Below, piece by piece: positions 32,318 to 52,851 of a DNA stretch of 64,000 bases; positions within the stretch are counted from its first letter, which is position 1, and each line of letters starts with the position of its first letter. The notes beneath the pieces are model-generated. The model was given only the letters and a program-made list of their open reading frames with translations. It was not told the origin of the DNA and ran no database searches. Both the position numbers and the translations under genes were made by a program. Source of the stretch: an uncultured Clostridia bacterium (GTDB taxonomy: Bacteria; Bacillota; Clostridia; TANB77; CAG-508). The stretch is taken from the NCBI GenBank assembly GCA_934141475.1, contig CAKPCG010000002.1:29165-93164 (forward strand), given 5' to 3'.

Positions 32318-32354
32318 AAACTTTAGCTTATTAATTGTAAGAAAGGAGATTTTT

Positions 32355-33944
32355 ATGAATAGCATAAGAATTATTAATATGAGGTCACTAGTAGATACAG
32401 GAACGATAGATTTAAAGCCAATAAATATGTTAGTTGGAAGTAATAGTTCTGGAAAGAGTACATTTTTGAGAGTGTTTCCATTATTAAAACAGTCTCTTTA
32501 TAGAAGAATAAATGGTCCTATTTTTTGGGCTGGTGATGAAAAGGATTATGTTGACTTTGGGTCATATAAGGAAACTATAAATAAGGGGATAAGTGAGAAG
32601 GAGAATTATATTGGACTTGAATTTTCGATTCCATATACACTTTATGAAATTGCTAGATATTCATATTCTAGTAGTAGAGTCAAAAATATGCCTAAAAAGG
32701 AAGCAAAAATAAAGATAGAGATAAGTAATAAAGGTAATATTGATATTATCTCAAAAATAGAATTAACATGTGATGAAGATGAGTTAATTATAGATAATAT
32801 AAAAAATAAAACATTCTTTAACAAAGAAGAAATAAAAATGAAAAATGATAGAAGAAAGAAGTATGAAGACGAATATGAAAGATATATGAATGAAAGTAAT
32901 TCTATATCATCAGTTTTATATGATGTATTTAATAGTAGCGAATTATATAAAAAAGTTTTAGATGAATTATTAAAAAATGAAGATAATGAATTAGAATCTG
33001 ATGTGGAAAAAAATTATATATATAGAACAACATATTTTTATAGACAAAATTTTATATATAAATTAGCAATAGAATATGTATCAAATAAAAGTTTTGATAT
33101 AGAAAAATTTTTAGAAGAGCCAATATCTTCAGATAAACTTATAGATAAGGCTTTAAAAAATGATATAAATAAATCTTTTTTTGATGATATAAAAAAAACG
33201 GAAACATTAAAATTAATATATTTTACAGGGGTTGGAAAATACTGTGCAGACTATATACAATCATATTTTACAAAAGTTAATTATATAAAACCTGTAAGGG
33301 CACATGCAGAGAGATATTATAGACTAAGAAACTTTTCAGTAGAAGATATTGACTCAGATGGGAAAAATCTACCAATATTCATAAATAGTTTAAACAGGAG
33401 AGACTTAGAAAAATATAATGAATGGTTATATGAAAATTTTGATTTTAAAGTAAATCCAAAACAAACAGATGGCCATGTTTTGATAAATATAGAAAAAGAT
33501 AATGGACCAATAAACATATCAGATACAGGGTATGGCTATAGTCAATTATTACCGATAATAACTCAATTATGGGTAATACTAAACAATAAATTAAATAGCG
33601 TTAGAAACGAGGAAGTTCCAATAGTTTTTGCTGTAGAGCAACCAGAATTACATTTACATCCAGAATTACAAGCAAAACTTATAGATGCCGTTTGTAAAAT
33701 TGCAAAAGAAGCAAAAAATGAAATACAATTTATTTTAGAAACACATTCTGAAACAATGATTAATAGATTAGGAAATTTGATTTACAAAAATAAAATATCA
33801 GAAGATGATGTAAATATTGTTATGTTTGAAAAAGAAAAAGAAGGTCAAAATACCTCAGTAAAAATAAGCAAATTTAATAAAGATGGTTATTTAGAAAATT
33901 GGCCAATAGGGTTCTTTTCAGTAGATGATATAAAAGATGAGTAA
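32355..33944 (+). CDS. ABC/OLD-type AAA ATPase (AAA_21-like with DUF3696-like C-terminal EQPELHLHP region)
   Basis: Walker A GSNSSGKST, VFAVEQPELHLHPELQ and H-loop ETHSETMI. Confidence 0.6.
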   Translation: MNSIRIINMRSLVDTGTIDLKPINMLVGSNSSGKSTFLRVFPLLKQSLYRRINGPIFWAGDEKDYVDFGSYKETINKGISEKENYIGLEFSIPYTLYEIARYSYSSSRVKNMPKKEAKIKIEISNKGNIDIISKIELTCDEDELIIDNIKNKTFFNKEEIKMKNDRRKKYEDEYERYMNESNSISSVLYDVFNSSELYKKVLDELLKNEDNELESDVEKNYIYRTTYFYRQNFIYKLAIEYVSNKSFDIEKFLEEPISSDKLIDKALKNDINKSFFDDIKKTETLKLIYFTGVGKYCADYIQSYFTKVNYIKPVRAHAERYYRLRNFSVEDIDSDGKNLPIFINSLNRRDLEKYNEWLYENFDFKVNPKQTDGHVLINIEKDNGPINISDTGYGYSQLLPIITQLWVILNNKLNSVRNEEVPIVFAVEQPELHLHPELQAKLIDAVCKIAKEAKNEIQFILETHSETMINRLGNLIYKNKISEDDVNIVMFEKEKEGQNTSVKISKFNKDGYLENWPIGFFSVDDIKDE

Positions 33945-33971
33945 AATAAAGATAAAGTAGGGTATGTAAAA

Positions 33972-35123
33972 ATGTTTATAGAAATAGATGAAGAAATTAT
34001 GGAATTACTAGATGTGGAAAAATATTTAAATTTTTTTAATGAATTAGCACATAATATCACAAATGGAACAAACTATGTTTTTATAACAAAAAGATTATTA
34101 GAAAAATTATATAAAAATCCTAAGATAGACAACAGTTCAAGGCAAATATATAAAAATATTTTTGATAACTCAGCTCAAGATTTAGTAATAAAAAGAAGTG
34201 TTAACAGAATAGCCAAAGTTGTAAATAATGGAAAAAATGAAATAGAAAAAAATGAATTTGAAATTGAAGACGAAAATGAAAAGAAGAAAGTAGAGGAAAT
34301 AATAATTCCAATTGATATTGCTATAGATGTAAATTTATTTATAAAAGAATCCAATTTAATAGGAGAAAATCATTCGGATTGCCAATTTTTACAAAATATA
34401 GGAGATGCATATAAAGCAAAAAAATCAATAAATGCAATTAATATTAAATTAAGAAATATCCAAGGTGGAGGAGCTACAATAAGTGATGAGTACAAAGTAA
34501 GAGCTAAAGAAAAAGAGATTTCGTTATTTATAGTTGATACAGATCAAAAATATATAGGATCTGCAAAAGGAAGTACTTTAAGAAAATTATTAAAAGAAGA
34601 AAGAGAAAACAAGTGCGAAGCTTGTGAAATATATGAACTTCCTGTACATGAAATAGAAAATATAATACCACTAAAAATGATAAAAAAATATTATGATGAA
34701 GCAAAAGGAGAGGAAGAAAGAAACGAGGTAATTGATTTTTTAGAATCTTTAGAAAAAAATGATTTTGAAAAGTCACCATTGGCTTTCTTCGATATGAAAA
34801 ATGGAATTAGTATGAAAAAATGGATTGAAGAAGAATCTTATAAGCAATATTGGAAAAACGTATTAGATGACATACAATTTGAGTATTGCGAAGAGTATGA
34901 ATATGATGAGAAAAAAGAGGCATATAATCCAAAGTACATTATTAATGGATTTGGAAGTAAGTTGTTAGATAAGATAAACGAATTTTGGAGTGAAAATTAT
35001 GACGGAATTGAATTTTTAAGAGAAAATGTAGATGAATATGTAAAGAGCACATGGGAAGATATTGGTGCTTTGGTGTATAGTTATGGATGTGCAAGACAGA
35101 GAGGAGTTGTAGGAGGAAGATAG
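33972..35123 (+). CDS. hypothetical protein. Possible TOPRIM-like partner of the ATPase.
   Basis: Acidic patches EIEDENE, FIVDTDQ (DxD) and VHEIENI. No firm family assignment. Confidence 0.35.
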   Translation: MFIEIDEEIMELLDVEKYLNFFNELAHNITNGTNYVFITKRLLEKLYKNPKIDNSSRQIYKNIFDNSAQDLVIKRSVNRIAKVVNNGKNEIEKNEFEIEDENEKKKVEEIIIPIDIAIDVNLFIKESNLIGENHSDCQFLQNIGDAYKAKKSINAINIKLRNIQGGGATISDEYKVRAKEKEISLFIVDTDQKYIGSAKGSTLRKLLKEERENKCEACEIYELPVHEIENIIPLKMIKKYYDEAKGEEERNEVIDFLESLEKNDFEKSPLAFFDMKNGISMKKWIEEESYKQYWKNVLDDIQFEYCEEYEYDEKKEAYNPKYIINGFGSKLLDKINEFWSENYDGIEFLRENVDEYVKSTWEDIGALVYSYGCARQRGVVGGR

Positions 35124-35222
35124 ATTTTTTTAATATGTTTGTTGGAGTTTTTTTAGGTGGAAAGTTGAATTATTGAAAATAATGTAGAATGTATATAAGA
35201 ATATATAGGAAAGAGAGGATGT

Positions 35223-36365
35223 ATGGAGGAAAATTTAGGAGAATTAATATTTGATATAATGGTTGAAGAATATAATGATAAAATAGAAAAGAGCAAGAAT
35301 ATTGAAGATTATTTAAAAGAGAAAAACAAACAAGAATTAAGTTCATTATATTTTTTATATAGACATGCAGGAGCTGCTGAAAATATAGTAGAAGACGTTA
35401 CACAACTTATGAAAACAAAAAAAGAAAATATAATAAAACAGATTGTAGTATTTTTAGATTCCAATATAGTAAGTATATTACAATTTATGAATAAAAGAAG
35501 AATGGAAGATATAAATACACTTGCAAATTATGACGAGTTTTATAAAATAGAAAAAAATCATAAAATGGATATATCTTTAGATACAATAAAAATATTAAAA
35601 CAGCTTGGTTTTATATTTTGTAAAAAAGTTGATGGTGGAATTGTAATACACATGCCTGATTTTATAAAAAATAAAATAAAGAATTTAAATAAAAAGGATT
35701 ATTATTTGGATTATTATGATGAAATATTGTTATATAGTAAGGGAATGGCAGAAACGTATGGGGCTATAAATATTCATAAGGCATATGAGATTATAAATAA
35801 AGATATACCGATAGAATTTGAAAAATATAGTAACATAATTAAATTTGTAAGTATATTAGAATTAGATACAATTTATTATTCTTTTAAATATATAACTATT
35901 TGTAATTTTAATTTAAGAGATGAAGAGTTAGAAAAATTAATGAATAGTAAAGCTGAAATAGTAAAATATAATAGAGAATTTTATGAGAACATTGCAAATA
36001 ATAATTATATATTTAATTTGAAGGAATATAAAGAATTTAGAGAATTTTTGAAAGATGATTTTGAATTAGATATTAATGAAGATGAATTATTACGTGGAGA
36101 GATAATTAACGATTATATAGATATAAGTCAGACAAATAAAGATGAGGCAAAGAAAATGCTAAATAATACAATAGATAGGTATTTTGAAGTTGACGATTTG
36201 GATAAGTTTGTGATTATTAGGTATATAGATAAAATTAAAAGTAGAATGCCTAAATGGATGTTAGGCGGAGCAGTTGAGAAGGAAAATTTGGATGGAAAAA
36301 TAGGTAGGAATGATAGGTGTTTATGTGGAAGTGGAAAGAAGTTTAAGAATTGTTGTGGAAGGTAG
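35223..36365 (+). CDS. SEC-C motif protein
   Basis: C-terminal RCLCGSGKKFKNCCG metal-binding SEC-C motif. The N-terminal 340 aa are unassigned. Confidence 0.5.
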   Translation: MEENLGELIFDIMVEEYNDKIEKSKNIEDYLKEKNKQELSSLYFLYRHAGAAENIVEDVTQLMKTKKENIIKQIVVFLDSNIVSILQFMNKRRMEDINTLANYDEFYKIEKNHKMDISLDTIKILKQLGFIFCKKVDGGIVIHMPDFIKNKIKNLNKKDYYLDYYDEILLYSKGMAETYGAINIHKAYEIINKDIPIEFEKYSNIIKFVSILELDTIYYSFKYITICNFNLRDEELEKLMNSKAEIVKYNREFYENIANNNYIFNLKEYKEFREFLKDDFELDINEDELLRGEIINDYIDISQTNKDEAKKMLNNTIDRYFEVDDLDKFVIIRYIDKIKSRMPKWMLGGAVEKENLDGKIGRNDRCLCGSGKKFKNCCGR

Positions 36366-36381
36366 AAAATGGTGGTGATAT

Positions 36382-36426
36382 CTCATAACCCGAAGGTCGT
36401 AAGTTCGAGTCTTACCCCCGCAACCA
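36382..36426 (+). repeat. 3' half of an initiator-type tRNA-Met (anticodon loop CAT to CCA). att-like direct repeat, copy 1.
   Basis: CTCATAACCCGAAGGTCGTAAGTTCGAGTCTTACCCCCGCAACCA. No 5' half is present upstream. The integrase gene lies 330 nt to the right. Confidence 0.6.
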
Positions 36427-36757
36427 AAAATTTTATTAGAGTCGCAAGAGATTGTGGACTCTTATTTTTTGATCATTTTATGTAACTTAAAATGAATTGG
36501 GCACCATTTGGGCACAAATCTATATAAAAAGGTTTTTGGTAAACCTTGAATTTTCGATATTTATAAATATATTTGATTAAATTCTATTTGAAATAAAATG
36601 AAAAAGTTTCTGCTTAAATTATAAAATATTAAATTGTAAAATTAATTAAAAGTATTTAAGCAGAAACTATCATGTCTTGATTTACTTCTTTATTATTATA
36701 ATTTTTCATAGAATTTTTTTCCTTTCAATTTTTTGTATAAATTTATGTGATAAGCCT

Positions 36758-37966
36758 CTAATTGGCTTTAAAATATTTTTTTGTATCTTCCCTATAAAGA
36801 AGATTATCAAGTTTATCTGATGCATCTCTGTCCATTCTCGCAAATGCATGTGCATAGATATTTAATGTTGTAGATGTTTGAGCATGTCCTAATCTATTAC
36901 TAACAGTTCTAACATCTAATCCTTGTGCAATAAGCAAAGTTGCATGTGTATGGCGTAAGCCATGAAATGTAATATGTGGCAAGTTTTTATCTTCTAGGAA
37001 CTGCCTAAACCATTTTGTAATTGTATCTGGATGCATAGGAGAACCATCCCATTGTACAAATAATCGATTTGTATTTTGCCATTTGTCTCCTAATTTTAAT
37101 CTTTTTTCTGATTGTTTTCTTTTGTAATCTTTTAAAAGTTTAGTAATTGAATCAGGGATGCTAATAACCCTGTTTGATGTTTCAGTTTTAGGATCTTTTG
37201 TATAGATACCAATAGAAGAAACATATTGACTAGCCTGTCTTACAGTAATTGAAGAATTTTTTAAGTCTACATCTTGCCATTCTAATCCTAAAACTTCTCC
37301 ACGTCTTAATCCTGTGAAAATTGTTAAAAGGATAATGACTCGAAACTTTAATTCTTCACTTTCCAATGCCTTAATTAATGCAATTGTTTGTACATCATCA
37401 TAGAAATTAATACTTGGCTTTTTAGCTTTAGGTGGTCTTACCCTTGATGCAGGATTGTATGGAATCATTTGCCAATATACTGCTTGTTGTAACATAGAAT
37501 GTAATAATCTGTGATGTTCCAGTACAGTTTTTGAAGATAACTTATGTTTAATATTTTTTCTAATATATGTTGATTCACTTAATTCTTGATATAAATACAT
37601 TAATTGCATTGGTTGAATTTTGTCTAAATACATGTTGCCGAGATAGGGGAGAATCCTTGACCTTAACATACTTTTATATCTTTCATAAGTTTTAGGAGAC
37701 AAATTTGGAATAGCATAATTGTTAATCCAAAAATCAGCATAATCTCTAAAACGCATCTTTTTTGCAGATAAGGCTTGTCCAGTTTCTATTTCAGATATAA
37801 ATAATGCTAATTCTTTTCTAGCTTCATTTTTGTTTTTTGCTTGAACTGTCTTTTTATAGATAATTCTTTTACCTTCTCCTGTATAGCCACCAGAAACTCT
37901 TAATCTATAAGAATTCTCTCCACGCTTTTCTATATTTCCTACCACACCTTCATCACCTCCTTTCAT
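36758..37966 (-). CDS. tyrosine-type site-specific integrase
   Basis: R...HGLRH...Y catalytic pattern (GLRRGEV, HGLRHTHATL, NIYAH). Adjacent to the tRNA-derived repeat. Confidence 0.85.
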   Translation of the reverse strand: MKGGDEGVVGNIEKRGENSYRLRVSGGYTGEGKRIIYKKTVQAKNKNEARKELALFISEIETGQALSAKKMRFRDYADFWINNYAIPNLSPKTYERYKSMLRSRILPYLGNMYLDKIQPMQLMYLYQELSESTYIRKNIKHKLSSKTVLEHHRLLHSMLQQAVYWQMIPYNPASRVRPPKAKKPSINFYDDVQTIALIKALESEELKFRVIILLTIFTGLRRGEVLGLEWQDVDLKNSSITVRQASQYVSSIGIYTKDPKTETSNRVISIPDSITKLLKDYKRKQSEKRLKLGDKWQNTNRLFVQWDGSPMHPDTITKWFRQFLEDKNLPHITFHGLRHTHATLLIAQGLDVRTVSNRLGHAQTSTTLNIYAHAFARMDRDASDKLDNLLYREDTKKYFKAN

Positions 37967-37985
37967 GTGGTAGGATAATTTTATA

Positions 37986-39005
37986 CTATCTTGAAATATA
38001 AACTTTAATATTAAAATTATCACTTGTATGTGACTCTAAATCAACTTTTAAACCTTGAAAGTTATTAATATAATAGTTAGGATCATAAATAAAGCATAAA
38101 AAGTTCCTGCATTTTGGATGAGATTTATATCTACCAATGTCAACTAACAATTCATCTCCTATTTGCTTATCTTTTAGTCCATCTCTAGTCATTTTAACTT
38201 CGATTCCGATTTCATAATCTGGTATAAGAAAATCTAATCGTGAATTGGCACCAGCATGGTTAGGAACAGCTTCTTCTGCTCTAATGTCTTTAAAGAATGT
38301 AAGAAACAAAGCATGTAATAAATCTTGTACATCATATTCATCATTAATAGTAATTGTTGATCTAGAAGAATGTCTAATTAATAATTGTTGTGCTATTGAA
38401 TGAAAGTTATTAAAAATATATTCTATTTTTGAAATAGCTTCGGCACTACTATGTGGATATATTTCTTGTTGAGAATATTTAAGTCTCGTTAATATTTCAA
38501 GAGATCTTGTATAAACATGATTTATAATTACTTTGCAATTAGACAAATCATGTCGTAAAGATAAAATTAATTTATCTTGTTTTTGCTTTTCATAATATAA
38601 GTCAATTGGGGATAAATTTTCTGGTAAACTCATAGAACTTATATTTTGTTCCAAAGATTCCATTGCTGAAATGAGATTTGTAACAGAATCGGAGTATATG
38701 GAATCTTTACCTACTTCATAAGTTCTATATTTTATGAAGTCTCTAGTAATTTCCATATATTTTTCATCTATTCTTTTTTCATCGCATAGACCTATATTTT
38801 TACATAACTGAATAAATTTCTCCTTAATTTTAGGTTCATAATTGCCTTTTAACTCTTTTGACTGAAGTTTAACCCAAAGCCAATCATATGGAAAATTTAA
38901 TTTTTCAGTAATTACAAGCATTTTAGATAAGACTATTGGCAAGTTCTTTTTATATTCTTGTTCTAAATCTTTTATACATTCATCTATTTCATCATAAATA
39001 TTCAT
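37986..39005 (-). CDS. hypothetical protein
   Basis: ORF co-directional with the integrase. Confidence 0.35.
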   Translation of the reverse strand: MNIYDEIDECIKDLEQEYKKNLPIVLSKMLVITEKLNFPYDWLWVKLQSKELKGNYEPKIKEKFIQLCKNIGLCDEKRIDEKYMEITRDFIKYRTYEVGKDSIYSDSVTNLISAMESLEQNISSMSLPENLSPIDLYYEKQKQDKLILSLRHDLSNCKVIINHVYTRSLEILTRLKYSQQEIYPHSSAEAISKIEYIFNNFHSIAQQLLIRHSSRSTITINDEYDVQDLLHALFLTFFKDIRAEEAVPNHAGANSRLDFLIPDYEIGIEVKMTRDGLKDKQIGDELLVDIGRYKSHPKCRNFLCFIYDPNYYINNFQGLKVDLESHTSDNFNIKVYISR

Positions 39006-39017
39006 AGTTAGTCTCCT

Positions 39018-40022
39018 TTATTTTTTACATTTATGCTTACTATCAGGCAAATAAAATTTATTGCACTCAAAACAGTAATTTGGAATATTACCATTTTTTA
39101 TATCCAAAAACAATTCATAATACATTAAAGAAAGTAAAGATTTATAAGAAATACTTTCTACAATTTCACCTGAATCAGTTTTTACAAAACGTTTTCGAAT
39201 ACCACCAGTTCTATAAGAAATTTGTTCTAAAGTTTTTTCTAACAATCTATTATCACAAGATAAGTTATAAACCAAACGGTGCATTTCTGATAAATAATCT
39301 ATATAACAAGATATAGGTTCAAAATATCCTGTTATTTTATATTCTTCTAATATTGAATTAAAACTATCTTTTCCAGGAAAGTCAACAGTTTTAAAATTTA
39401 AATCAAATTGAAATAAAGAAGGGTTATAATAATCTGTGTCAAATATTCCTAATTCAAATGGTTTAAAGATTGGAAAAGAAACATTAAACTTTTCATTTGT
39501 AGATTCATAAACTTCTCCAAAGAAACCATATTTACATGCAAAACTATAAATAGTTTTATAAAAAATTTCTCTATCTGTTGCATAAGAATTAATATTTAAA
39601 AACTTTAAATATATTCTTGAATTTTTTTCTTTTTCATCCAATGGATTAAAGAATATAATTTTAGAATCTTTGTTAGGACCATAAACTTCTTTACCAGTAA
39701 AAGAAGAATATTTTATGGGATTTTTTATTTTTAACCATAATGGTTTTTGACTAGGTAATATATCAATATAATCTTCTAAAGTTTTAAAACTATATTCACT
39801 AACTAAAGAATTAGTTTTTCCAGTTAAATATCCAACAGGTACATTAAAAAAGTTAGATAATTTATTTAAAACTTCAAATCCCGGTGTGGAATTATTTGAT
39901 TCGTAATTTGCGATGATTGATCTTTTTTCTCCAATAGCATTTGCTAATGCTTGTTGTGTAATACCTTTATTTTTTCTTAAAAGCTTTAATTTTTCACTAA
40001 AATTTGTATTCATCATAAACAC
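39018..40022 (-). CDS. XRE-family HTH protein with a large C-terminal domain (repressor-like)
   Basis: N-terminal LKLLRKNKGITQQALANAIG HTH. Transcribed divergently from the excisionase. Confidence 0.5.
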   Translation of the reverse strand: MFMMNTNFSEKLKLLRKNKGITQQALANAIGEKRSIIANYESNNSTPGFEVLNKLSNFFNVPVGYLTGKTNSLVSEYSFKTLEDYIDILPSQKPLWLKIKNPIKYSSFTGKEVYGPNKDSKIIFFNPLDEKEKNSRIYLKFLNINSYATDREIFYKTIYSFACKYGFFGEVYESTNEKFNVSFPIFKPFELGIFDTDYYNPSLFQFDLNFKTVDFPGKDSFNSILEEYKITGYFEPISCYIDYLSEMHRLVYNLSCDNRLLEKTLEQISYRTGGIRKRFVKTDSGEIVESISYKSLLSLMYYELFLDIKNGNIPNYCFECNKFYLPDSKHKCKK

Positions 40023-40103
40023 TCCAATATATTTTTATGAGAACATTATAAAACAATAATTTACATTTGTAAATAATTAAAACAAAAATATTTTAAAAAT
40101 GTA

Positions 40104-40132
40104 TTGACAAAAAACAAAAATATAAATAAAAT
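40104..40132 (+). promoter_or_regulatory. candidate rightward sigma-A promoter
   Basis: TTGACA, a 17-nt spacer, then TAAAAT. Confidence 0.3.
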
Positions 40133-40192
40133 GTTTTAAAACAAAACAGTAATGTTTTTGTTTTAAACAAATTAGATAGGAGGTGATTAGGC

Positions 40193-40432
40193 ATGGATAA
40201 TGAAAAATTAAATTCAAATACAAAAGAAAAAAGAGTTTTAGATTCAGTAGAAGCAGCACAATATTTGGGTATTTCATATTGGTTAATTCGTAAATTAGTT
40301 AGAGAAAAGAAAATACCATATTACAAAATTGAATCTAAAACACTATTTACAAAAGAAATTCTAGACAAATACATTCAAGATAGTCTAGAAGAACCAAAGA
40401 AAAAAGTAAAATATAGTTTTGATGATTTTTAA
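40193..40432 (+). CDS. excisionase/MerR-type HTH DNA-binding protein
   Basis: VLDSVEAAQYLGISYWLIRKLVREKKIPYYKI. Confidence 0.5.
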   Translation: MDNEKLNSNTKEKRVLDSVEAAQYLGISYWLIRKLVREKKIPYYKIESKTLFTKEILDKYIQDSLEEPKKKVKYSFDDF

Positions 40433-40470
40433 AATTAAAAAATATTTTACTAAAAAGGTGTTGATTACTG

Positions 40471-40947
40471 ATGAAAGGGGGAAAGAGATATTGGTTTAAG
40501 TTGTACAATAATTTTTTTGACAACGAAAAAATCAAGCAAATCAAAAGAAAAAAAGATGGAGATAGGCTTATTGTAATTTTTATAAATTGTTTAGTAATAG
40601 CAGCAAATTGTGAATCTGGAGGATATTTAAAAATAAGTGAAAATAAGTTTTTTACCATAGAAACATTAGCACATCATATGGGTAGAAATTAGAAAAGTAT
40701 CAAGAATGCATTAGATATTTTCCAGGAATATAGCATGATAGTACAAGATGAATATGGCTATAAAATTAAAAATTGGAATAACTATCAAAACTTACAGGAG
40801 AAAGGGATAAAGGATAAAAAAGAATCTACAAAAATAGGAAAAAATGTGGATACAGAAAGAGAAAAAGAATTAAAAAAAGAAATAGAAACAGAAGGAGGTG
40901 AATTTTATGCAAAACAGAGTTATGGAAAAATCAAAGATTTTATATAG
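40471..40947 (+). pseudogene. phage replisome-organizer N-terminal domain gene interrupted by an in-frame TAG at 40690..40692
   Basis: KRYWFKLYNNFFDNEKIKQI...TLAHHMGRN*KSIKNALDIFQEYSMIVQDEYGYKIKNWNNYQ reads as one frame across the stop. Track ORFs 40471..40692 and 40735..40947 are in the same frame. Confidence 0.5.
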
Positions 40948-41761
40948 TGTAGAAGAAATCTTGCAAAATGGTTATCCAATAAAAGCAAATATACCTGAAG
41001 ATACCAGATGTAAATATTGTAATAAAGTTTTAAAACCAAGAGGAATATTAAATCCAATAAGCAAAACCATAAATGTATTTATAGAAAATGAAAAATGCAA
41101 TTGTAAACAAGCAATAGAAGAAAGGAATAAGGCAAAAGAAAAGTTACAAGAAGAATTGATGAAACAATATGAGAATTATAGAAAAGAAGAATACAACAAA
41201 AAAATAAAACAATATTATGGAACAGATTTTATAACAGCACAATTTAAACAAAAAACTTTAGAGAATTTTATTACAAATGAACAAAATTCAAGAACGAAAT
41301 TAGCAGCAGAGAAATTTATATCAGATTTCAAAAACTTCAAGAATGGTATTATATTTGAAGGAAAAAGTGGAACAGGAAAAACACACATTTCAATGGCGAT
41401 ATGTAATGAATTATTAAAAGAAAATACGCCAATAATATTTGGAACATTAACAGAATTAGTAGATAAGTATGCTAAATTTTATACAAATCATACAGAAAGT
41501 GATCTAACAAAATTATATACAAAAGTAGATTTATTAGTTATAGATAATTTGGGACTTGAACCAATGAATGATTGGTTGTTATCTAAATTATTTACAATTA
41601 TAAATGAAAGAATATTAAATGAATTGCCATATATTATTACAACAAATTATGACAGAGATAAGTTAAAACAAAGATTAAGCATACCAAACAAAGTATGTGA
41701 AACAACAAATTCTATAATATCAAGATTATATAATATGTGCTACAGAATAGAATGCAAGTAG
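40898..41761 (+). CDS. DnaC/IstB-like helicase loader ATPase with an N-terminal Cys cluster
   Basis: Walker A GKSGTGKTH, DLLVIDNLG and CKYCN...CNCKQ. Confidence 0.65.
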   Translation: MNFMQNRVMEKSKILYSVEEILQNGYPIKANIPEDTRCKYCNKVLKPRGILNPISKTINVFIENEKCNCKQAIEERNKAKEKLQEELMKQYENYRKEEYNKKIKQYYGTDFITAQFKQKTLENFITNEQNSRTKLAAEKFISDFKNFKNGIIFEGKSGTGKTHISMAICNELLKENTPIIFGTLTELVDKYAKFYTNHTESDLTKLYTKVDLLVIDNLGLEPMNDWLLSKLFTIINERILNELPYIITTNYDRDKLKQRLSIPNKVCETTNSIISRLYNMCYRIECK

Positions 41762-41966
41762 AAAAAAGATTATAGAATATTAAAATTGAAAATAATGTAG
41801 CTATTTAATAGTGATGGAATATAAATTGGGAATAGTTTGGAAATTTATTGTTTTATTATTTAACTTTATTTTAGAATAATAAAAAATTTAGAATTAAAAA
41901 TCGAGATGTAATAATATTAAGTTTTTCAAACTAGCAAAAGAAAAATAGCTAAGTAAGGAGGTAAAG

Positions 41967-42590
41967 ATGTTAGAAAGAAAAATTGCAACATATGATAAAA
42001 CTAATTTTAGGAAAAGACTAAATGAGTTTTTAGAAGTTGCAAAAATATATAAGCAAGACGATTTGAATGAACATAATATTTATCAAGTTTTATATAAAAC
42101 AGAACAATTTAGAAATGCAATATATAAATGTATAAAACTAAAAAGACCATTAATAGTAGATTCACCATTGCCAGGAAAAGAAGATGGAATAAGTGAATAT
42201 GAGAGTAAATATTCAGATGAAATTTTAAAAATAAGGATTAATGAATTGTTGCCACCAGTAAGAACACCATATAATAATAAAAGATTAGAGAATACTTGCA
42301 AAGCAATAGGAGAAAAGTACAAAGGATTATTCACTAATAAAGAAGTTATTATTAGAGTGCAAGTAAGTGTACCAAGAAATAATTGGGATATAGATAATAG
42401 AGACTTAAGATATATTTTGAATGGATTTGTTTATGGTGGACTTATTACAGATGATAATATTAAATATGTAAGTTATATGTTAGAAGGAATTAATAACAAA
42501 GAAAATTATATAAAAATATTTATTGGTGATAAAAGGAATATTTTAAAAATTTGTAGTATAAATCCAAAAGAATATTTTGAAAAAGTGTGA
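41967..42590 (+). CDS. RusA-family Holliday junction resolvase-like protein with an extended N-terminus
   Basis: NWDIDNRDLRYILNGFVYGGLITDDNIKYV matches RusA DxDN...DD catalytic signatures. Confidence 0.5.
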   Translation: MLERKIATYDKTNFRKRLNEFLEVAKIYKQDDLNEHNIYQVLYKTEQFRNAIYKCIKLKRPLIVDSPLPGKEDGISEYESKYSDEILKIRINELLPPVRTPYNNKRLENTCKAIGEKYKGLFTNKEVIIRVQVSVPRNNWDIDNRDLRYILNGFVYGGLITDDNIKYVSYMLEGINNKENYIKIFIGDKRNILKICSINPKEYFEKV

Positions 42591-42863
42591 TTATTAATCA
42601 ATTTAAAAATATCCAACCAGTCACACTTTTGGAACTTTCAAAAAATCACACTTTTAAATAAATATATAAAGGCCTAAAAATAAACCAAAACTGACATTTT
42701 TTATACTTGAAAATTGTACATAGGTAGGGAATACATAACAGAAAAAACATATAAATACATGTCAGGGCGACTGGAGGCACAAGATGTTAATCTTGTGTCT
42801 TCTGTCGCATAAAAGTAAGTTGGAAGATAGATGGAAATGTAAAAAAGGGAGGAAGTGATTTAA

Positions 42864-43811
42864 GTGGAAAAAGAAAAGAGGATATGTTTAAGGAATAGAG
42901 ATTTCAATTTTATAATGTATTTATCTGAATATGGAATTATAACAAATGAAAATGTTAAATTATTTTATGATTCAAAATATTATTATAAAAACAGATTAGC
43001 AAGTTTAGCAAAAGGTGAGTTTATTGAACGAGTATATGGAAAAGTTGTATTAGGTAGAAAAGGAAAAAGCTATTTAAATAAAATAGGATTAGGTTATAGA
43101 AATATAAATAGAAATGAAACATATAAAAAGAGAATGGAAAGAATTAGTGATGTATCTTGTAAAGTACAATTAGCCGGATGGTTCTTTGAGCCAAGTTGGA
43201 GGTGTAGTGTAAATACTTATACAAAAAGAGGCAATAGATTTATTGGTGTCATGTCGAGAGAAAAAAGATGGTGGCAAGAAGCTGATGAGGATTTTTACCC
43301 AAGATCTTATATAGTTTATTTTCTGCATAAAGATATTACACCAAGAGAATTAAAGTATATAGACAAAGAATTAGAAAGAAATAAAAATGATTTTAAAGGT
43401 GCAATTATATTTATAGAAGATGAATGGCTCCTAAACCATCCAAAATTCACAAATATAAATTTTAGTGAGAATTATATAATTCTATATCAAAAAGAAATAT
43501 GGGATATATTCAAAAAAATTTTAGATGAAGATTATATGAAAAATAGGATAATTAATATATTTGGAGAAAATATTTATAGAGTAAAAGGATACATATATGA
43601 AATATATTGCAAAAAGGAAGAAGAGCTATATACATATATTTTTCCAATGCCTTTTGTTGATTTTAGTATTATGGATTGGATTAATTATATGGTTGATAGT
43701 AGTATTCATGGTGATATTAAATGCAAGGTTGTTTGCAATGAATTTTGCATAGAGGATGTTAGAAATTTTTTGAAAGATAAAGTTGAAGTGATTTGTTTAA
43801 TAGAACAATAG
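42864..43811 (+). CDS. hypothetical protein
   Basis: ORF with GGGAGGAAG RBS. Preceded by three copies of the 10-mer TCACACTTTT/AAAAGTGTGA. Confidence 0.3.
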   Translation: MEKEKRICLRNRDFNFIMYLSEYGIITNENVKLFYDSKYYYKNRLASLAKGEFIERVYGKVVLGRKGKSYLNKIGLGYRNINRNETYKKRMERISDVSCKVQLAGWFFEPSWRCSVNTYTKRGNRFIGVMSREKRWWQEADEDFYPRSYIVYFLHKDITPRELKYIDKELERNKNDFKGAIIFIEDEWLLNHPKFTNINFSENYIILYQKEIWDIFKKILDEDYMKNRIINIFGENIYRVKGYIYEIYCKKEEELYTYIFPMPFVDFSIMDWINYMVDSSIHGDIKCKVVCNEFCIEDVRNFLKDKVEVICLIEQ

Positions 43812-43913
43812 AAGAAAATGGAAAAAATAACATAGAATCATTGAGAAAAAAGTCGTTTTATGATATAAATATATCATAGAAATAGGATAACTAATATATG
43901 GGAGTTTAAGAAT

Positions 43914-46900
43914 ATGAAAATTATTGAAATATTAGAAGAGTTTAGAAAAATATTTGCTAATGAAAGAGATAAGGGGACAGCTTTTGAAAAAATAGTAAAA
44001 ATATATTTAGAAAACGAACCAAAATATAGAGAAATTATAGAAAAAGTATGGATGTGGGCAGATTTTCCGTATAGAGATAATATAGGAGATACTGGAATTG
44101 ATCTTGTAGCAAAAACAGTTTATGATGAATATTGGGCAATTCAATGTAAATTTTATGCTGAAGATCACGAAATAACAAAGGGGGACGTTGACACTTTTCT
44201 AGCAACTTCTTCTAAATATTTTTATGTAGACGGTGAAAAAAGAAAATATGATTATAGATTATTTGCTTCAACTACAAATTATTATAGTAAAAATGCAGAA
44301 GAAACTTTGCAAGACCAAGATCCGCCTGTAGGAAGAATAAGTTTAGAAACATTATTGGAATCTCAAATTGATTGGAAAAAATATTCACCAGTTCAAAATG
44401 TAATAGAATTAAAAGATAAAAAGACACCAAGAAATCATCAAAACAAAGCAATTAAAGATGTTTTGAACGGATTTAAGGAACATGATAGAGGAAAACTAAT
44501 AATGGCTTGCGGAACTGGAAAAACATTTACTAGCCTAAGAATTGCAGAAGAGCAATTAAACGGAACAGGAAATGTTTTGTTTTTAGTACCATCAATTGCT
44601 TTAGCTAGTCAAACTTTGACAGAATGGGCAGCACAATGTAGATATAGTTTTAATGCTGCTATTGTTTGTAGTGATAATAAAGCTTCAAAAGGTGAAGAAT
44701 CTATAGATCTAGGTTTCCCATCAACAACTGATGTAAATAGATTAAAAAAATGGGCTGATAAGTGTAAATATGATGGCAAAGAAATGAATTTTATATTTTC
44801 AACATATCAGTCAATAGATGTGGTTTCAAATTTTCAAAAAATGACAGACTACCATTTTGATATAATTATTTGCGATGAAGCACACAGAACGACAGGAGTT
44901 ACTTTAAGCGATGAAGATGAAAGTTATTTTGTTAAGGTTCATGATGATAACTTTATTCATGCTAAAAAAAGATTATATATGACAGCTACACCAAGAATAT
45001 ATGGTGATGCAGCTAAAGGAAAAGCAAATAGTGTAAATGCAGAATTATGTTCGATGGATGATGAGAGTATCTATGGCCCAGAGTTCCATAGATTAAGTTT
45101 TAGTGATGCTATAAAACAAGATTTATTATCAGATTATAAAGTACTAGTGTTAGCGGTAGATGAAGAATATGTAAAGAAAGAATTACAGGATTTATTAAAA
45201 GGTGCAAATCATGAATTACAATTAGAAGATTCAGTAAAGATTATGGGATGTTGGAATGGTCTTTCAAAGATTTCTACATGGGATGAAAAAGAAAATTTTG
45301 TAACTGATCCTTTACCAATGAAGAGAGCAGTAGCTTTTTGTAATAGAATTAAAGATTCTCAAAAATTAGTAGAGATGTTTAAAACAATTCAAAAACATGT
45401 AAAAGAAGATAAATATAATCCAGAAAGCAAAAATTTGGTAAATATAGATATAAGACATGTGGACGGTTCTTTTAATGCACTAGAGAAAAAAGAATGTATT
45501 AATTGGTTAAAAGAAGATATTGAAGATGGAAACTGTAGAATATTAACTAATGCAAGATGCTTATCAGAAGGCGTAGATGTCCCTGCATTAGATGCAGTTA
45601 TGTTTTTAAATCCAAGAAGTAGTATGGTAGATATTATACAATCAGTTGGAAGAGTTATGAGAAAGGCTGAAGGTAAAAAATATGGTTATGTTATTTTACC
45701 AATTGGTATTTCAGCATCAGAAGATCCAGATGAAGCACTAGATAAAAATGAAAAGTATAAATTAGTCTGGGAAATATTACAAGCATTGAGAGCACATGAT
45801 GATAGATTTAATAATACAATAAATAAAATTGAATTAAATAAAAGAAAACCTGATCAAATTCAAGTAATTGGAATAGGTGAAAAAAACGCAGAAGATAGAG
45901 ATGACGGATATAAAAAAGTAAAAATAAAAACTAACAAAAAGGTTTATGAGGGCCAAATAAAAATTGATTTAGAGACATTTGACAAATGGAAAGAATCTGT
46001 GTATGCGAAAATGGTTAAAAAGGTTGGCTCAAGAATATATTGGGAAAATTGGGCTAAAGATGTAGCAGAAATTGCTACTTCTCATATGGATAAAATGCGC
46101 GAACTAATAAATAGTGATAATCCAAAAATAAAAAAAGAAATAGAAAATTTTGTTACGGGATTAAAAGAGAACCTAAACAATTCAATAACTCAAGAAGATG
46201 CAATTGAAATGTTAGCTCAGCACATGATAACAAAACCTGTATTTGATGCATTGTTTGAAAATTACGAATTTGTTAAAAATAATCCTGTTTCTAAAACGAT
46301 GCAAAAAATGATAGACATTTTAGACAAAGAAATGTCTAATGAAGAGAAAGAAAAATTAAATAAATTTCATGAAAGTGTAAAAGAAAGAGCACAAGGAATC
46401 GATAATGCCGAGGGAAAGCAAAGAATAATATTAGAACTATATGAAAAATTCTTTAAAATAGCATTACCAAAAGAAGTTGACAAGTTAGGAATCGTATATA
46501 CACCACCAGAATGCGTTGACTTTATAATACATAGTGTAGAATATTTAATGAATAAAGAATTTGGAAAAAGTTTATCAGATCACGGGGTTCATATAATTGA
46601 TGGATTTACAGGGACAGGAACATTTATAGTAAGATTACTTCAAAGTGGTGTTGTAAAAAAAGAAGATTTATTATATAAATATACAAATGATATTCATGCG
46701 AATGAGATTGTTTTACTAGCATATTATATTGCTGCAATTAATATTGAAGAAACATTTCACGAGTTGAGTGGAAAAAAAGAATATACTCCTTTTGATGGAA
46801 TTGTTTTAACTGATACTTTTCAACTATATGATAATAAATATGAAAATAATGAATATATATCAGAGATGTTAGAAGAAAATAATGAAAGAGCGAACAGACA

Positions 46901-48671: not shown

Positions 48672-48683
48672 AAGGGAATATAA

Positions 48684-51132: not shown

Positions 51133-51480
51133 AAATATACATTAATATTAAAATATATTATAAAGGATATATTGTTCAAGTGAAAAAAACAAGATATTAT
51201 TAAAAATAAGATAAAAGATGCTGAATACATATCCTGTTTTAAAAGAAAAAACAGAGATTTCAATAAAAAATGCTAAAAAAGTTGAAAAGTATCATTTGGA
51301 TTTAGGACAAACTTTAGATAATGAAAATTGCAATCCTTATACATCAGCATATAAAGTTGTAGAAGAATTAATAAAAAGAAATAATTGATACAGATGAAAA
51401 GCAAAGTATGAAAGTAATTTTTTAATTACAGGATTATTTTGCTTTTTATAGGATTTAGTATGAGAAAAGAAGGGAATAAA

Positions 51481-52383: not shown

Positions 52384-52386
52384 AAA

Positions 52387-52803
52387 ATGAGAAATAAGTT
52401 AAATAAAATAATAGGTTATATTGTAATCATTTGTTTTATATATTTAATTATTTTTGAAAATAAATTTAATTTAGATTCATTCATTATAGGGAAATTTAAA
52501 TGTAAAACAGAAGAAGTAATATATTTTAAAAGTGTAATGTTAATTATAATCTCTTTAATTATTATGTTGATTAATCAAATAATTAACAAGTATGCAATTA
52601 ATATAGATTTACCACTCAAATCTTATATAAAAATTCATCCTATAAGAAGTGTAATTTTATTTGTAATATTATTAATAACTATATTAATATGTTCAATGTT
52701 TTTATTAGGTGTAACCAACATATTATGGTATATTATTCCATTAATATTAATTTGCTTTAGTGGTATTATTGGCTTTTATATAGGGATGATAGAAAAAGAT
52801 TAA
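52387..52803 (+). CDS. hypothetical membrane protein
   Basis: Four TM helices. Confidence 0.3.
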   Translation: MRNKLNKIIGYIVIICFIYLIIFENKFNLDSFIIGKFKCKTEEVIYFKSVMLIIISLIIMLINQIINKYAINIDLPLKSYIKIHPIRSVILFVILLITILICSMFLLGVTNILWYIIPLILICFSGIIGFYIGMIEKD

Positions 52804-52804
52804 G

Positions 52805-52846
52805 AAAAAAGTGTGATAGATAATACAATCTGAATCACACTTTTTT
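52805..52846. terminator. bidirectional hairpin between convergent genes, built from the AAAAGTGTGA/TCACACTTTT 10-mer
   Basis: aaaaagtgtga...tcacacttttt. Confidence 0.4.
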
Positions 52847-52851
52847 AAAAG

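What the first reader, a model, noticed from the sequence alone, without database searches (positions are those of the whole stretch)
32355..36365. Three-gene cassette at an island boundary: ABC/OLD-type ATPase, 383-aa acidic protein and SEC-C motif protein. Candidate novel defence system.
Gene 1 has Walker A GSNSSGKST, the EQPELHLHP signature and an ETHSE H-loop, typical of OLD/AAA_21 defence ATPases such as PARIS AriA or Gabija GajA N-termini. Gene 2 has DxD and acidic clusters compatible with a TOPRIM/DUF4435-like nuclease but is not clearly assignable. Gene 3 ends in a SEC-C zinc-binding motif (CLCGSGKKFKNCCG) on an otherwise unknown 340-aa body. The genes are tightly spaced and co-directional. 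They sit immediately left of the tRNA-derived att repeat, where defence cargo accumulates. The third, SEC-C gene has no counterpart in PARIS and suggests an undescribed variant.
Basis: partly seen in the sequence, partly recalled or inferred. Interest (0 to 1): 0.65.

Follow-up and report, generated by a model that had tools for sequence, protein, structure and literature searches.

The report
Two-gene ATPase–nuclease defence module, not three
The first two genes are a widespread, co-evolving pair (an ABC ATPase and a probable metal-dependent nuclease) of the kind bacteria use against phages, while the third, SEC-C-tailed gene is only a neighbour, so this is a new member of a known kind and not a new three-gene system.

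Summary
The three ORFs and every quoted motif are present as described. Only genes 1 and 2 form a unit.

- **Gene 1** (529 aa) is an OLD-type ABC ATPase. Its best match is Menshen NsnB (1e-46), followed by the untested PADLOC candidate PDC-M55A. It has a borderline DUF3696 tail and an invariant, unusual Walker B (EQ).
- **Gene 2** (383 aa) has no Pfam family. It belongs to a large family of 1,866 clusters at 50% identity. Five conserved acidic residues (E132, D136, D189, D191, E227) match the order and spacing of the PARIS AriB Toprim site. It matches PDC-M55B weakly.
- **Pairing.** In all 32 other loci examined, a gene 1 homologue lies directly upstream of the gene 2 homologue. Their divergences correlate (r=0.95). 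No third gene is conserved, and there is no NsnA/DUF262 gene.
- **Gene 3** never accompanies the pair elsewhere. It occurs alone or next to SoFic-like genes. A strain 99.6% identical across genes 1 and 2 loses synteny 30 nt before its start codon.

The att observation holds, with a correction. An orphan 3' half of a tRNA(CAT) lies 16 nt after gene 3 and serves as attB for a 17-kb defence island. There is no intact tRNA in the window.

Verdict: a PARIS- or Menshen-like two-gene ATPase–nuclease module. It is experimentally untested and already partly catalogued. Interest is modest.

The parts
32355..33944 (+). Gene 1: OLD-type ABC ATPase, 529 aa, NsnB-like. Walker A is G28-T36 (K34). An Arg (PVRAHAERYYR) stands where the Q-loop would be. 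The signature is GYGYSQ. Walker B is VEQPELHLHP (428-436). The H-loop is ETHSE. The C-terminal tail is DUF3696-like (NWPIGFF).
   Evidence: Pfam AAA_15 4e-27, AAA_21 1e-20, DUF3696 21.8 bits against a cut-off of 22. PADLOC NsnB 1.1e-46, PDC-M55A 3.4e-39, AriA 2.3e-28. These motifs are conserved almost without exception in 19 homologues; one MAG copy has a gapped Walker A.
33972..35123 (+). Gene 2: 383-aa partner and presumed effector. The N-terminal alpha/beta domain (about 1-120) may be PIN-like. The C-terminal domain has Toprim-order beta-alpha elements and the conserved residues E132, D136, G165-G167, D189, D191, E227, E229 and N230.
   Evidence: No Pfam, NCBIfam or PHROG match. PADLOC PDC-M55B 1.5e-6 for the window protein; 52 of 89 family members match, best 6e-13. 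AF2 model pLDDT 88.7, pTM 0.87. Invariant columns. The family has 1,866 representative clusters. It always follows a gene 1 homologue.
35192..35193 (.). Synteny breakpoint between the gene 1-gene 2 segment and gene 3, 30 nt before the gene 3 ATG. In strains L007 and L008 a degraded IS (HTH_Tnp_1 and IstB fragments) and unrelated genes follow here.
   Evidence: blastn: L007 1-4945 matches window 30248-35192 at 99.6%, and L008 behaves likewise. Sequences read. Gene content.
35223..36365 (+). Gene 3: 380-aa helical protein, probably with winged-helix domains, ending in a SEC-C zinc motif (366-379). It is a neighbour of the module and not part of it.
   Evidence: Pfam SEC-C 3e-8 is the only match. 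The family has 62 clusters. Its contexts elsewhere never include genes 1 and 2. AF2 model pLDDT 86. Foldseek gives only weak winged-helix hits, E>=0.4.
36382..36426 (+). Orphan 3' half of a tRNA with anticodon CAT (anticodon loop, variable loop, T-arm, acceptor 3' strand and CCA). It is the left att site of the neighbouring island and starts 16 nt after the gene 3 stop codon.
   Evidence: Read directly. Unique 45-mer. 24-nt exact direct repeat with 53353-53376 (D17). No intact tRNA. In L048 the same junction is followed by a different half-tRNA sequence and a different integrase.
36427..53330 (.). Context only: a 17-kb integrative defence island. It carries a tyrosine integrase (36758-38023, minus strand), a DpnII-MboI/Aga-type REase, an HTH-DUF6076 regulator, a replication module, a 1585-aa Type IIG/ISP RM enzyme, and a PDC-M46A/B pair.
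   Evidence: Pfam; PADLOC. The backbone is 94.8% identical to L010 over 3.6 kb.
53331..53376 (+). Right att copy: a degenerate tRNA(CAT) 3' half.

Best explanation
Genes 1 and 2 form a self-contained two-gene conflict module. It is most likely an abortive-infection type of anti-phage defence, of the ABC ATPase plus Toprim nuclease class.

Gene 1 is an NsnB-like OLD-type ABC ATPase. By analogy with AriA, PtuA and NsnB, it is inferred to oligomerise and to hold gene 2 in an inactive complex, probably through its C-terminal DUF3696-like tail and its dimer interface.

Gene 2 is inferred to be the effector. It has an N-terminal alpha/beta domain for docking or target recognition. Its C-terminal domain looks like a two-metal Toprim nuclease (E132, D136, D189, D191, E227).

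A phage-derived cue would be sensed by the ATPase. Nucleotide-dependent rearrangement would then release or activate gene 2. Gene 2 would cut nucleic acid, with tRNA the leading guess by analogy with AriB and P2 Old, and so stop translation and phage growth.

**Shown:** domain identities of gene 1, strict gene 1-gene 2 adjacency, co-evolution of the two genes, the conserved acidic constellation, and a mobile or defence-island context.

**Inferred:** complex formation, nuclease activity, the trigger, the substrate and phage protection.

Gene 3 is an unrelated neighbour. It lies between the module and a reused half-tRNA attachment site.
For: - **Gene 1 identity.** AAA_15/AAA_21 with a borderline DUF3696 tail. 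Best PADLOC matches are NsnB 1e-46, PDC-M55A 3e-39 and AriA 2e-28. PDB phmmer finds an OLD-family nuclease, 6p74, at 1.6e-5.
- **Adjacency.** A gene 1 homologue directly precedes the gene 2 homologue in 14 of 14 metagenomic loci. The same holds in 18 of 18 GTDB genome loci from Bacillota, Bacteroidota, Gammaproteobacteria and Oligoflexia.
- **Co-evolution.** Pairwise identities of the two proteins correlate at r=0.95 over 171 pairs.
- **No third partner.** Among 62 flanking proteins, no family occurs more than three times.
- **Conserved residues in gene 2.** In 89 diverse members, E132, G167, D189 and D191 are invariant. D136, G165, G166, E227, E229 and N230 are at least 90% conserved.
- **Match to AriB.** AriB's metal-binding residues are E26, D30, D88, E90 and E122 (PMC11464382). 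The gene 2 residues have the same order and near-identical spacing.
- **Predicted structure.** The AF2 model (pLDDT 88.7) places E132 just after strand 127-131, D189 at the C-terminal end of strand 184-189 with D191 just after it, and E227 after strand 218-223. [quoted passage not shown]
- **Links to defence models.** PDC-M55B matches 52 of 89 members and AriB matches 1 of 89.
- **Defence and mobile contexts.** Homologous pairs lie between hsdS and hsdR of a type I RM system, beside Gabija and an integrase, beside AbiEii, and in a conjugative insertion. In the window, the pair is next to an island carrying Type IIG RM and PDC-M46.
- **Precedent.** The NsnB DUF3696 tail is predicted to clamp the NsnC N-domain (PMC12065111).
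Against: - hhalign of the family profile against a GajA sequence was not significant (probability 0.1).
- A profile search of PDB sequences found nothing.
- No DUF4435, RloB, DUF4276 or NsnC model hits gene 2.
- The ATPase has an invariant Walker B EQ in place of DE, so ATP hydrolysis may be weak or absent. The PARIS mechanism may therefore not transfer directly.
- PDC-M55 is untested. The related ABC ATPase plus TOPRIM candidate HEC-01 gave no protection in E. coli assays (bioRxiv 10.1101/2024.01.29.577857).
- No experiment bears on this locus.
Confidence: 0.62

Rival explanations
1. All three genes form one novel defence system, in which the SEC-C protein acts as a sensor, regulator or third subunit of a PARIS-like pair.
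For: The genes are co-directional and close together (gaps of 27 and 99 nt). No terminator-like site was found between gene 2 and gene 3. The gene 2-gene 3-att arrangement recurs at 99.1% identity in a second sample, L048. Gene 3 homologues do occur as cargo on integrative islands and next to the defence gene SoFic.
Against: - Gene 3 homologues are absent from all 32 other loci carrying the pair.
- The pair is absent from every gene 3 context examined elsewhere.
- L007 and L008 keep intact genes 1 and 2 at 99.6% identity, with the break 30 nt before the gene 3 ATG.
- L048 is the same species, so it is not independent evidence.
- In about a third of gene 3 family clusters the SEC-C motif itself is missing.
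Confidence: 0.05
2. Genes 1 and 2 are primarily an addiction module, in effect a toxin-antitoxin pair. It would stabilise mobile DNA or a genomic hotspot, with the ATPase acting as antitoxin to a toxic nuclease. It would have no dedicated anti-phage role.
For: The pair is found on conjugative and integrative elements, next to serine recombinases, and embedded in RM operons. PARIS itself behaves as a toxin-antitoxin-like pair (PMC13064643). In L009-L012 the ATPase gene is split into 400 + 105 aa while the partner gene stays intact. This shows that the module can decay.
Against: The two roles are not exclusive. Every characterised ABC ATPase plus nuclease pair of this class is anti-phage: PARIS, Septu, HEC-02, HEC-03 and Menshen. 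If gene 2 were a constitutive toxin, a split ATPase beside an intact partner would be lethal. That argues against a simple toxin-antitoxin logic.
Confidence: 0.2
3. Genes 1 and 2 have a housekeeping role in DNA or RNA metabolism. For example, they could be a RecF/SbcC-like repair ATPase with an accessory nuclease, placed here by chance next to an island.
For: Gene 1 gives weak hits to SMC_N and RecF. The upstream genes (rpsB, tsf, SSB, a YfcE-like phosphoesterase) are housekeeping genes. There is no GC contrast.
Against: - The distribution is patchy across phyla, and the flanks differ in every genome.
- The pair is embedded in RM operons and lies beside Gabija, AbiE and integrases.
- The partner evolves fast (18-54% identity, against 30-64% for the ATPase).
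- The best HMM matches are all defence models.
Confidence: 0.05

Closest known systems
PADLOC candidate PDC-M55 (Payne et al., bioRxiv 10.1101/2024.01.29.577857; one of 145 untested 'phage defence candidates' found embedded in BREX, DISARM or type I RM systems)
   Same: Both proteins hit its models. Gene 1 matches PDC-M55A at 3.4e-39 and gene 2 matches PDC-M55B at 1.5e-6. Of 89 gene 2 family members, 52 match the B model. Relatives of the pair (L009-L012) are embedded in a type I RM operon, which is how PDC-M55 was defined.
   Different: The B match is weak and covers only the acidic core (residues 132-287 against model positions 104-252 of 315). Gene 1 scores higher against NsnB than against M55A. 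The original cassette lists a third common family (FAM_00004) that has no counterpart here. The window copy is not embedded in an RM system. PDC-M55 has no experimental support.
Menshen (NsnA-NsnB-NsnC; Millman 2022; Li et al. 2025, PMC12065111)
   Same: Gene 1 is most similar to NsnB (1e-46) and has the ABC ATPase plus DUF3696-tail architecture. It also shares the unusual motif set of a non-DE Walker B, Arg in place of the Q-loop Gln, and GxG in place of SGG. Gene 2 sits where NsnC sits. It has the same two-part layout of an N-terminal alpha/beta domain plus a C-terminal nuclease-like domain. Some NsnC proteins carry Toprim effectors.
   Different: There is no NsnA (DUF262/ParB) gene here or in any of the 32 related loci. 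No NsnC model matches gene 2. Walker B is EQ here, not EN. The sensor proposed for Menshen is therefore missing, so sensing must work differently.
PARIS (AriA-AriB), and the related AbiL, RloAB and HEC-01 ATPase plus Toprim pairs
   Same: It is a two-gene operon with the same order and similar sizes: an ABC ATPase of about 55-60 kDa followed by a nuclease of about 35-45 kDa. The five acidic residues have the same order and spacing as AriB E26, D30, D88, E90 and E122. The context is likewise mobile elements and hotspots.
   Different: Gene 2 is not a DUF4435 protein; it gives no Pfam or AriB hit. It also carries an extra N-terminal domain of about 120 aa. Gene 1 matches AriA models less well than NsnB, and it has a DUF3696 tail. 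Triggers and targets are unknown.
SEC-C motif proteins (SecA C-terminus, YecA, YchJ/UPF0225) and SoFic neighbourhoods, for gene 3
   Same: The C-terminal CxC(x8)CC zinc-binding motif matches Pfam SEC-C (3e-8). Two independent gene 3 homologues lie directly downstream of SoFic-like Fic genes, and one cluster appears fused to Fic.
   Different: The 360-aa body has no homology to SecA, YecA or YchJ. There is no Fic gene in this window. About one third of family clusters lack the motif.

Membership tests
PARIS (AriA/AriB) | ABC ATPase of the AAA_15/AAA_21 (OLD-ABC) type encoded first | tested here: met
   Pfam AAA_15 4e-27 and AAA_21 1e-20. PADLOC AriA 2.3e-28, which is weaker than NsnB at 1.1e-46.
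PARIS (AriA/AriB) | Partner is a DUF4435 Toprim protein (AriB) | tested here: not met
   Gene 2 gives no DUF4435 or AriB hit in Pfam or PADLOC. Only 1 of 89 family members touches AriB, at 9e-4.
PARIS (AriA/AriB) | Two-metal Toprim acidic constellation (E, D, D/E, E) in a Toprim fold | tested here: inconclusive
   The residues are conserved, with AriB-like spacing and a Toprim-like order of strands and helices. However, Foldseek and hhalign gave no significant Toprim match.
Menshen (NsnABC) | NsnA: a DUF262/ParB-like sensor gene directly upstream of the ATPase | tested here: not met
   The upstream gene is a Metallophos_2 phosphoesterase. No DUF262 gene appears in any called neighbourhood. Among 62 flanking proteins of 17 of the 18 genomic loci (one contig is too short), no family occurs more than three times, and DUF262 is not among the 25 families listed.
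Menshen (NsnABC) | NsnB: ABC ATPase with a C-terminal DUF3696 helix and atypical Walker B, Q-loop and signature motifs | tested here: met
   PADLOC NsnB 1.1e-46. DUF3696 scores 21.8 bits against a 22.0 cut-off, which is borderline. EQ Walker B, Arg at the Q position and a GxG signature are invariant in 19 homologues. The criteria are taken from PMC12065111.
Menshen (NsnABC) | NsnC: inactive-PIN N-domain plus effector C-domain, encoded directly downstream of NsnB | tested here: inconclusive
PADLOC PDC-M55 (candidate) | Adjacent genes that hit the PDC-M55A and PDC-M55B models | tested here: met
   A model 3.4e-39; B model 1.5e-6 with partial model coverage. 7 of 9 close members and 52 of 89 distant members hit the B model.
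PADLOC PDC-M55 (candidate) | Demonstrated anti-phage activity | not testable with these tools
   The source paper lists the PDCs as untested.
OLD / Gabija GajA | ATPase and Toprim fused in one polypeptide (with a GajB helicase partner in Gabija) | tested here: not met
   Gene 1 ends at the DUF3696 tail and has no Toprim domain. GajA models match only residues of about 360-476, at about 1e-12. No UvrD-type gene is adjacent.
SEC-C motif proteins (YecA/YchJ/SecA C-terminal tail), for gene 3 | C-terminal SEC-C zinc motif together with a family-specific body | tested here: inconclusive
   The motif is met (Pfam 3.2e-8). NCBIfam YchJ-type models align mainly to the C-terminal tail (at most the last 70-76 residues) and score far below their cut-offs. 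The body has no known family.

The most novel reading that the evidence does not exclude
The pair could represent an autonomous 'NsnA-less Menshen-like' defence family. In that reading an NsnB-type ATPase, with an invariant and probably hydrolysis-impaired EQ Walker B, both senses infection and gates a previously unclassified nuclease with a PIN-like N-domain and a Toprim-like C-domain. The family would be large (about 1,900 clusters at 50% identity across at least four phyla), absent from Pfam, annotated only as hypothetical, and never tested. A weaker add-on is that the gene 3 family (winged-helix plus SEC-C) is an accessory of SoFic-type Fic defence genes.
Probability: 0.35. Interest if true: 0.45.

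Novelty: new member of a known kind. Interest (0 to 1): 0.3.

Why it matters
If the pair is active, it adds a large family to the ABC ATPase plus nuclease class of phage defences. That family has no Pfam entry and spans several phyla. It would also show that an NsnB-type ATPase can work without the DUF262 sensor that current Menshen models treat as the initiator. This bears on how such ATPases sense infection.

The invariant EQ Walker B offers a natural test of whether ATP binding alone, without hydrolysis, gates effector release.

In practical terms, the finding corrects a three-gene call to a two-gene call. It also documents a half-tRNA that still serves as a recurrent integration site for defence islands in a gut Clostridia lineage.

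None of this would overturn current thinking. It extends a well-populated theme.

Tried and rejected
- **Sequence and profile searches of solved structures.** PDB searches with the gene 2 family returned only noise. hhalign of the 89-sequence profile against a GajA sequence from L004 gave probability 0.1. It did align E132 and DxD to GajA's EN and DLD, but I do not count this as evidence.
- **Family libraries for gene 2.** Pfam, NCBIfam and PHROGs found nothing for gene 2 or its relatives.
- **Genome scan.** The search for related loci with the diverse alignment A3 failed because no stretch was conserved enough. It was rerun with A1.
- **Naming the family.** The last homology search with A3 returned only 'hypothetical protein' annotations (Pectobacterium, Salmonella).
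- **The tRNA fragment.** An Rfam E-value search did not recognise it. The tRNA reading therefore rests on reading the sequence directly.
- **Promoters and terminators.** The scan was uninformative in this AT-rich DNA: 55 promoter-like sites against 44 expected, and no + strand terminator.
- **Metallophosphoesterase as a system component.** I considered the upstream gene as a possible member and rejected it, because it is not conserved next to the pair elsewhere.
- **Organism.** The window's own organism was not identified. No GTDB representative carries a gene 2 more than 50% identical. The nearest are uncultured Clostridia MAGs.

Full report
**1. The observation**

All are on the + strand, separated by 27 and 99 nt. 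Every quoted motif is present:
- Walker A GSNSSGKST at gene 1 residues 28-36
- EQPELHLHP at 428-436
- ETHSE at 462-466
- VDTD at gene 2 residues 188-191
- CLCGSGKKFKNCCG at gene 3 residues 366-379

Gene 2 is acidic (pI 4.9).

Immediately downstream, at 36382-36426, is a 45-nt stretch that reads as the 3' half of a tRNA with anticodon CAT. It runs from the anticodon loop CTCATAA through the 3' anticodon stem, variable loop, T-arm GTAAG-TTCGAGT-CTTAC and acceptor strand to ACCA. A second, degenerate copy lies at 53331-53376 and shares a 24-nt exact repeat. Between the two copies is a 17-kb element that starts with a tyrosine integrase.

ARAGORN and Rfam find no intact tRNA anywhere in the window. 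GC content is flat at about 25%. The att repeat is an orphan half-tRNA, not the end of a tRNA gene.

**2. Gene 1**

Pfam gives AAA_15 (4e-27), AAA_21 (1e-20) and a borderline DUF3696 C-terminal tail (21.8 bits against a cut-off of 22.0). Against PADLOC models the order of matches is as follows:

| Model | E-value |
|---|---|
| Menshen NsnB | 1.1e-46 |
| PDC-M55A | 3.4e-39 |
| HEC-03 | 3.7e-29 |
| AriA | 2.3e-28 |
| GajA | about 1e-12 |

The only solved relative found by sequence is an OLD-family nuclease, 6p74 (1.6e-5).

An alignment of 19 homologues from four phyla shows these motifs conserved almost without exception (one MAG copy has a gapped Walker A):
- GxNSSGKS(T/S) at Walker A
- an arginine motif, PxRAxxERYYR, where the Q-loop would be
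- D(T/M)G(F/Y)G(Y/F)SQ in place of the LSGGQ signature
- Walker B hhhhEQPELHLHP
- ETHS at the H-loop
- a C-terminal NWPxGFF

Li et al. (PMC12065111) describe the same kind of departures for NsnB: Walker B DE changed to EN, Q changed to R, and SGG changed to GxG, together with the DUF3696 helix. Gene 1 is therefore an NsnB-type member of the OLD-ABC ATPases, not an AriA or a GajA N-terminus.

**3. Gene 2**

No Pfam, NCBIfam or PHROG model matches it. The word-indexed search found only nine close clusters. A profile search of 1.84 billion cluster representatives found far more: 1,866 at E<=1e-3 and 1,463 at E<=1e-10. Almost all of the 150 listed hits are full-length matches of 350-385 aa.

In an alignment of 89 diverse members, E132, G167, D189 and D191 are invariant. 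D136, G165, G166, G200, T202, E227, E229, N230, P233, D274, K276 and G278 are at least 90% conserved. None of the 89 has a meaningful Pfam match (six isolated hits to unrelated families, E>=1e-3). Of the 89, 52 match PADLOC PDC-M55B (best 6e-13) and one touches AriB (9e-4). NCBI names for members are 'hypothetical protein'.

An AlphaFold2 model is confident (pLDDT 88.7, pTM 0.87) and shows two domains.
- Residues 1-120 form a beta-alpha-beta-alpha-beta unit plus a hairpin.
- Residues 125-383 open with strand 127-131 (E132 just after it), a helix, a strand, a helix, strand 184-189 (D189 at its C-terminal end and D191 just after it), a helix, and strand 218-223 (followed by H226-E227-x-E229-N230).

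This is the Toprim order of elements. The acidic residues E132, D136, D189, D191 and E227 repeat the order and spacing of AriB's metal-binding residues E26, D30, D88, E90 and E122 (PMC11464382).

**4. Are the genes a unit?**

For genes 1 and 2 the answer is clearly yes. In 14 metagenomic loci and 18 genome loci, a gene 1 homologue lies directly upstream of the gene 2 homologue, often overlapping it. The genome loci come from Clostridia, Lachnospiraceae, Streptococcus, Lachnoanaerobaculum, Bacteroidales, Pseudoalteromonas, Pseudomonas, Vibrio and Oligoflexia. Pairwise identities of the two proteins correlate at r=0.95 over 171 pairs, and the partner diverges faster.

Nothing else is conserved. 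Among 62 proteins flanking the genomic loci, no Pfam family occurs more than three times, and DUF262 is not among the families listed.

The contexts are typical of defence cargo:
- between hsdS and hsdR of a type I RM operon
- beside Gabija, an integrase and a DUF2726 helicase
- followed by AbiEii
- inside a conjugative insertion between gyrB and gyrA

**5. Gene 3 is not part of the unit**

No gene 3 homologue occurs in any of the 32 other loci that carry the pair. The gene 3 family has 62 clusters of about 380 aa. It is found in several settings, never with genes 1 and 2:
- alone between ferritin and hrcA-grpE-dnaK in two lineages
- after an acyltransferase gene
- after a small DUF6577-like gene
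- directly after a SoFic-like Fic gene, in two independent contexts, one of them an integrative island

One cluster (P0036) appears to be a Fic-gene 3 fusion.

Contigs L007 and L008 come from other gut samples. They match the window at 99.6% from 30248 to 35192 and then diverge, 30 nt before the gene 3 ATG, into degraded IS fragments and unrelated genes. Genes 1 and 2 stay intact there.

A third sample (L048) keeps gene 2-gene 3-half-tRNA at 99.1% identity. It then continues into a different island with a different integrase. Its half-tRNA sequence differs to the right of the anticodon loop. Gene 3 therefore lies on the chromosomal side of a reused attB, and the islands to its right are interchangeable.

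The gene 3 model (pLDDT 86) is mostly helical. It has two beta-hairpin-containing units that give only weak winged-helix hits to HlyU/ArsR, CapW, BrxR and MukE (E>=0.4). About a third of family clusters lack the SEC-C motif. In L022 this traces to a 1-nt insertion inside the motif.

**6. How it most likely works**

The best-supported reading is a two-gene ABC ATPase plus Toprim nuclease module of the PARIS, AbiL, RloAB, HEC-01 and Menshen class.

By analogy with solved PARIS and Septu complexes and the predicted NsnB4-NsnC2 assembly, the ATPase oligomer would hold the nuclease inactive. The DUF3696-like tail would grip the partner's N-domain. A phage cue would cause nucleotide-dependent release or activation. 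The nuclease would then cut nucleic acid. tRNA is the leading guess, because AriB and P2 Old both cut tRNA.

Two differences from the models matter.
- There is no NsnA sensor, so the ATPase or the partner's N-domain must do the sensing.
- Walker B is invariantly EQ, a change that in ABC ATPases usually permits ATP binding but cripples hydrolysis. This last point rests on established knowledge and was not tested here.

Each is discussed in its own section. Only the addiction reading keeps appreciable weight, and it is not exclusive of defence.

**7. Comparison with what is known, and novelty**

The pair is already partly catalogued. PADLOC's PDC-M55 was assigned from 47 instances of the embedded cassette FAM_00005>>FAM_02935>>FAM_00004. 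It is one of 145 untested candidates. Its models hit both proteins, although the B match is weak.

The pair is not Menshen, because NsnA is absent. It is not PARIS, because gene 2 gives no DUF4435 hit. It is not OLD or Gabija, because the ATPase and nuclease are not fused. The Menshen survey was seeded on DUF262, so it would not have seen NsnA-less pairs.

I therefore classify this as a new member of a known kind. The mild novelty is that the partner family is large, has no Pfam entry, and has not been studied. Interest is 0.3. The three-gene novelty that justified the original 0.65 is not supported.

**8. Surroundings**

The neighbouring island (36427-53330) carries the following:
- a tyrosine integrase
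- an Aga-type helical/DpnII-MboI REase
- an HTH-DUF6076 regulator
- a replication module
- a 1585-aa Type IIG/ISP RM enzyme
- a strong PDC-M46A/B pair (1e-62 and 9e-137)

Its backbone is 94.8% identical to contig L010. There the cargo is instead a type I RM system with an embedded homologue of the gene 1-gene 2 pair.

Beyond the island lie a DEDDh exonuclease (PDC-S48-like), a Type II REase and another integrase at the window end. The locus is a defence hotspot, which is consistent with a defence role for genes 1 and 2.

Noticed in passing
window 36382-36426 and 53331-53376; L048 1290-1360: The attachment site is an orphan 3' half of a tRNA(CAT). It has no 5' half and starts 16 nt after the gene 3 stop codon. 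There is no intact tRNA in the 64-kb window. In another sample the same junction is followed by a different half-tRNA sequence and a different integrase and island. A truncated tRNA remnant therefore appears to remain a reusable attB.
   Followed up: partly
window 36427-53330: This is a 17-kb integrative defence island. It carries a tyrosine integrase, an Aga-type helical/DpnII-MboI REase (5.9e-46), an HTH-DUF6076 regulator, a Phage_rep_org_N/IstB-like replication module, a 1585-aa Type IIG/ISP RM enzyme, and a PDC-M46A/B pair (1e-62 and 9e-137; the B protein is LmuB-like). It ends with two small membrane-protein ORFs.
   Followed up: partly
L010 1-3634 against window 40240-43874; L009-L012: The same island backbone (94.8% identity) carries different cargo elsewhere. 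That cargo is a type I RM operon with a gene 1-gene 2 homologue (69% nt identity) embedded between hsdS and hsdR. In all four contigs the ATPase gene is split into 400 + 105 aa while the partner gene is intact. This could be a pseudogene, a programmed frameshift or a shared assembly error.
   Followed up: no
gene 1 family, window residues 428-429 (32355-33944): Walker B is invariantly E-Q in place of D-E in all 19 homologues from four phyla. The Q-loop position is Arg and the signature is GxG. This echoes the NsnB peculiarities and suggests ATP binding with impaired hydrolysis.
   Followed up: partly
gene 3 family (A2); L022 about 8085-8140: About one third of gene 3 family clusters end in CPCRIR or CPCRKRKKI in place of the SEC-C motif. 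In L022 a single extra C inside the motif shifts the frame, and the +1 frame still reads GSGKKYKNCHGK. This could be recurrent loss of the zinc motif. For the long-read contigs it could also be sequencing error.
   Followed up: partly
L015-L017 5910-8140; L046 4905-7143; P0036, P0071: Gene 3 homologues lie 25-33 nt downstream of SoFic-like Fic genes (Fic_N, Fic, SoFic-like_C) in two independent contexts. One cluster looks like a Fic-gene 3 fusion. This may be a functional link between this winged-helix/SEC-C family and Fic defence genes.
   Followed up: partly
window 53563-64000: More defence-type genes lie to the right of the island. They are a DEDDh exonuclease with a TPR-like tail (PDC-S48-like, 55396-57027), a Type II REase (57735-58853, 2e-92), and another tyrosine integrase starting at about 63480 on the minus strand (78% nt identity to the L015 integrase). 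This suggests a further island beyond the window.
   Followed up: no
L039 2624-4529; L042 9101-11006: In two Bacteroidia MAGs a second, shorter AAA_15 ATPase (431 aa) with a 206-aa partner lacking any Pfam match sits within 2 kb of the gene 1-gene 2 homologue pair. This may be a second ATPase-effector module in the same hotspot.
   Followed up: no
L007 4946-5800; L008 4283-5134: In the strains that lack gene 3, the breakpoint is occupied by fragments of an IS3-type transposase (HTH_Tnp_1, 50 aa) and an IstB_IS21 gene. Trypsin_2 and MazG-like genes follow. The region downstream of gene 2 is a rearrangement hotspot.
   Followed up: partly
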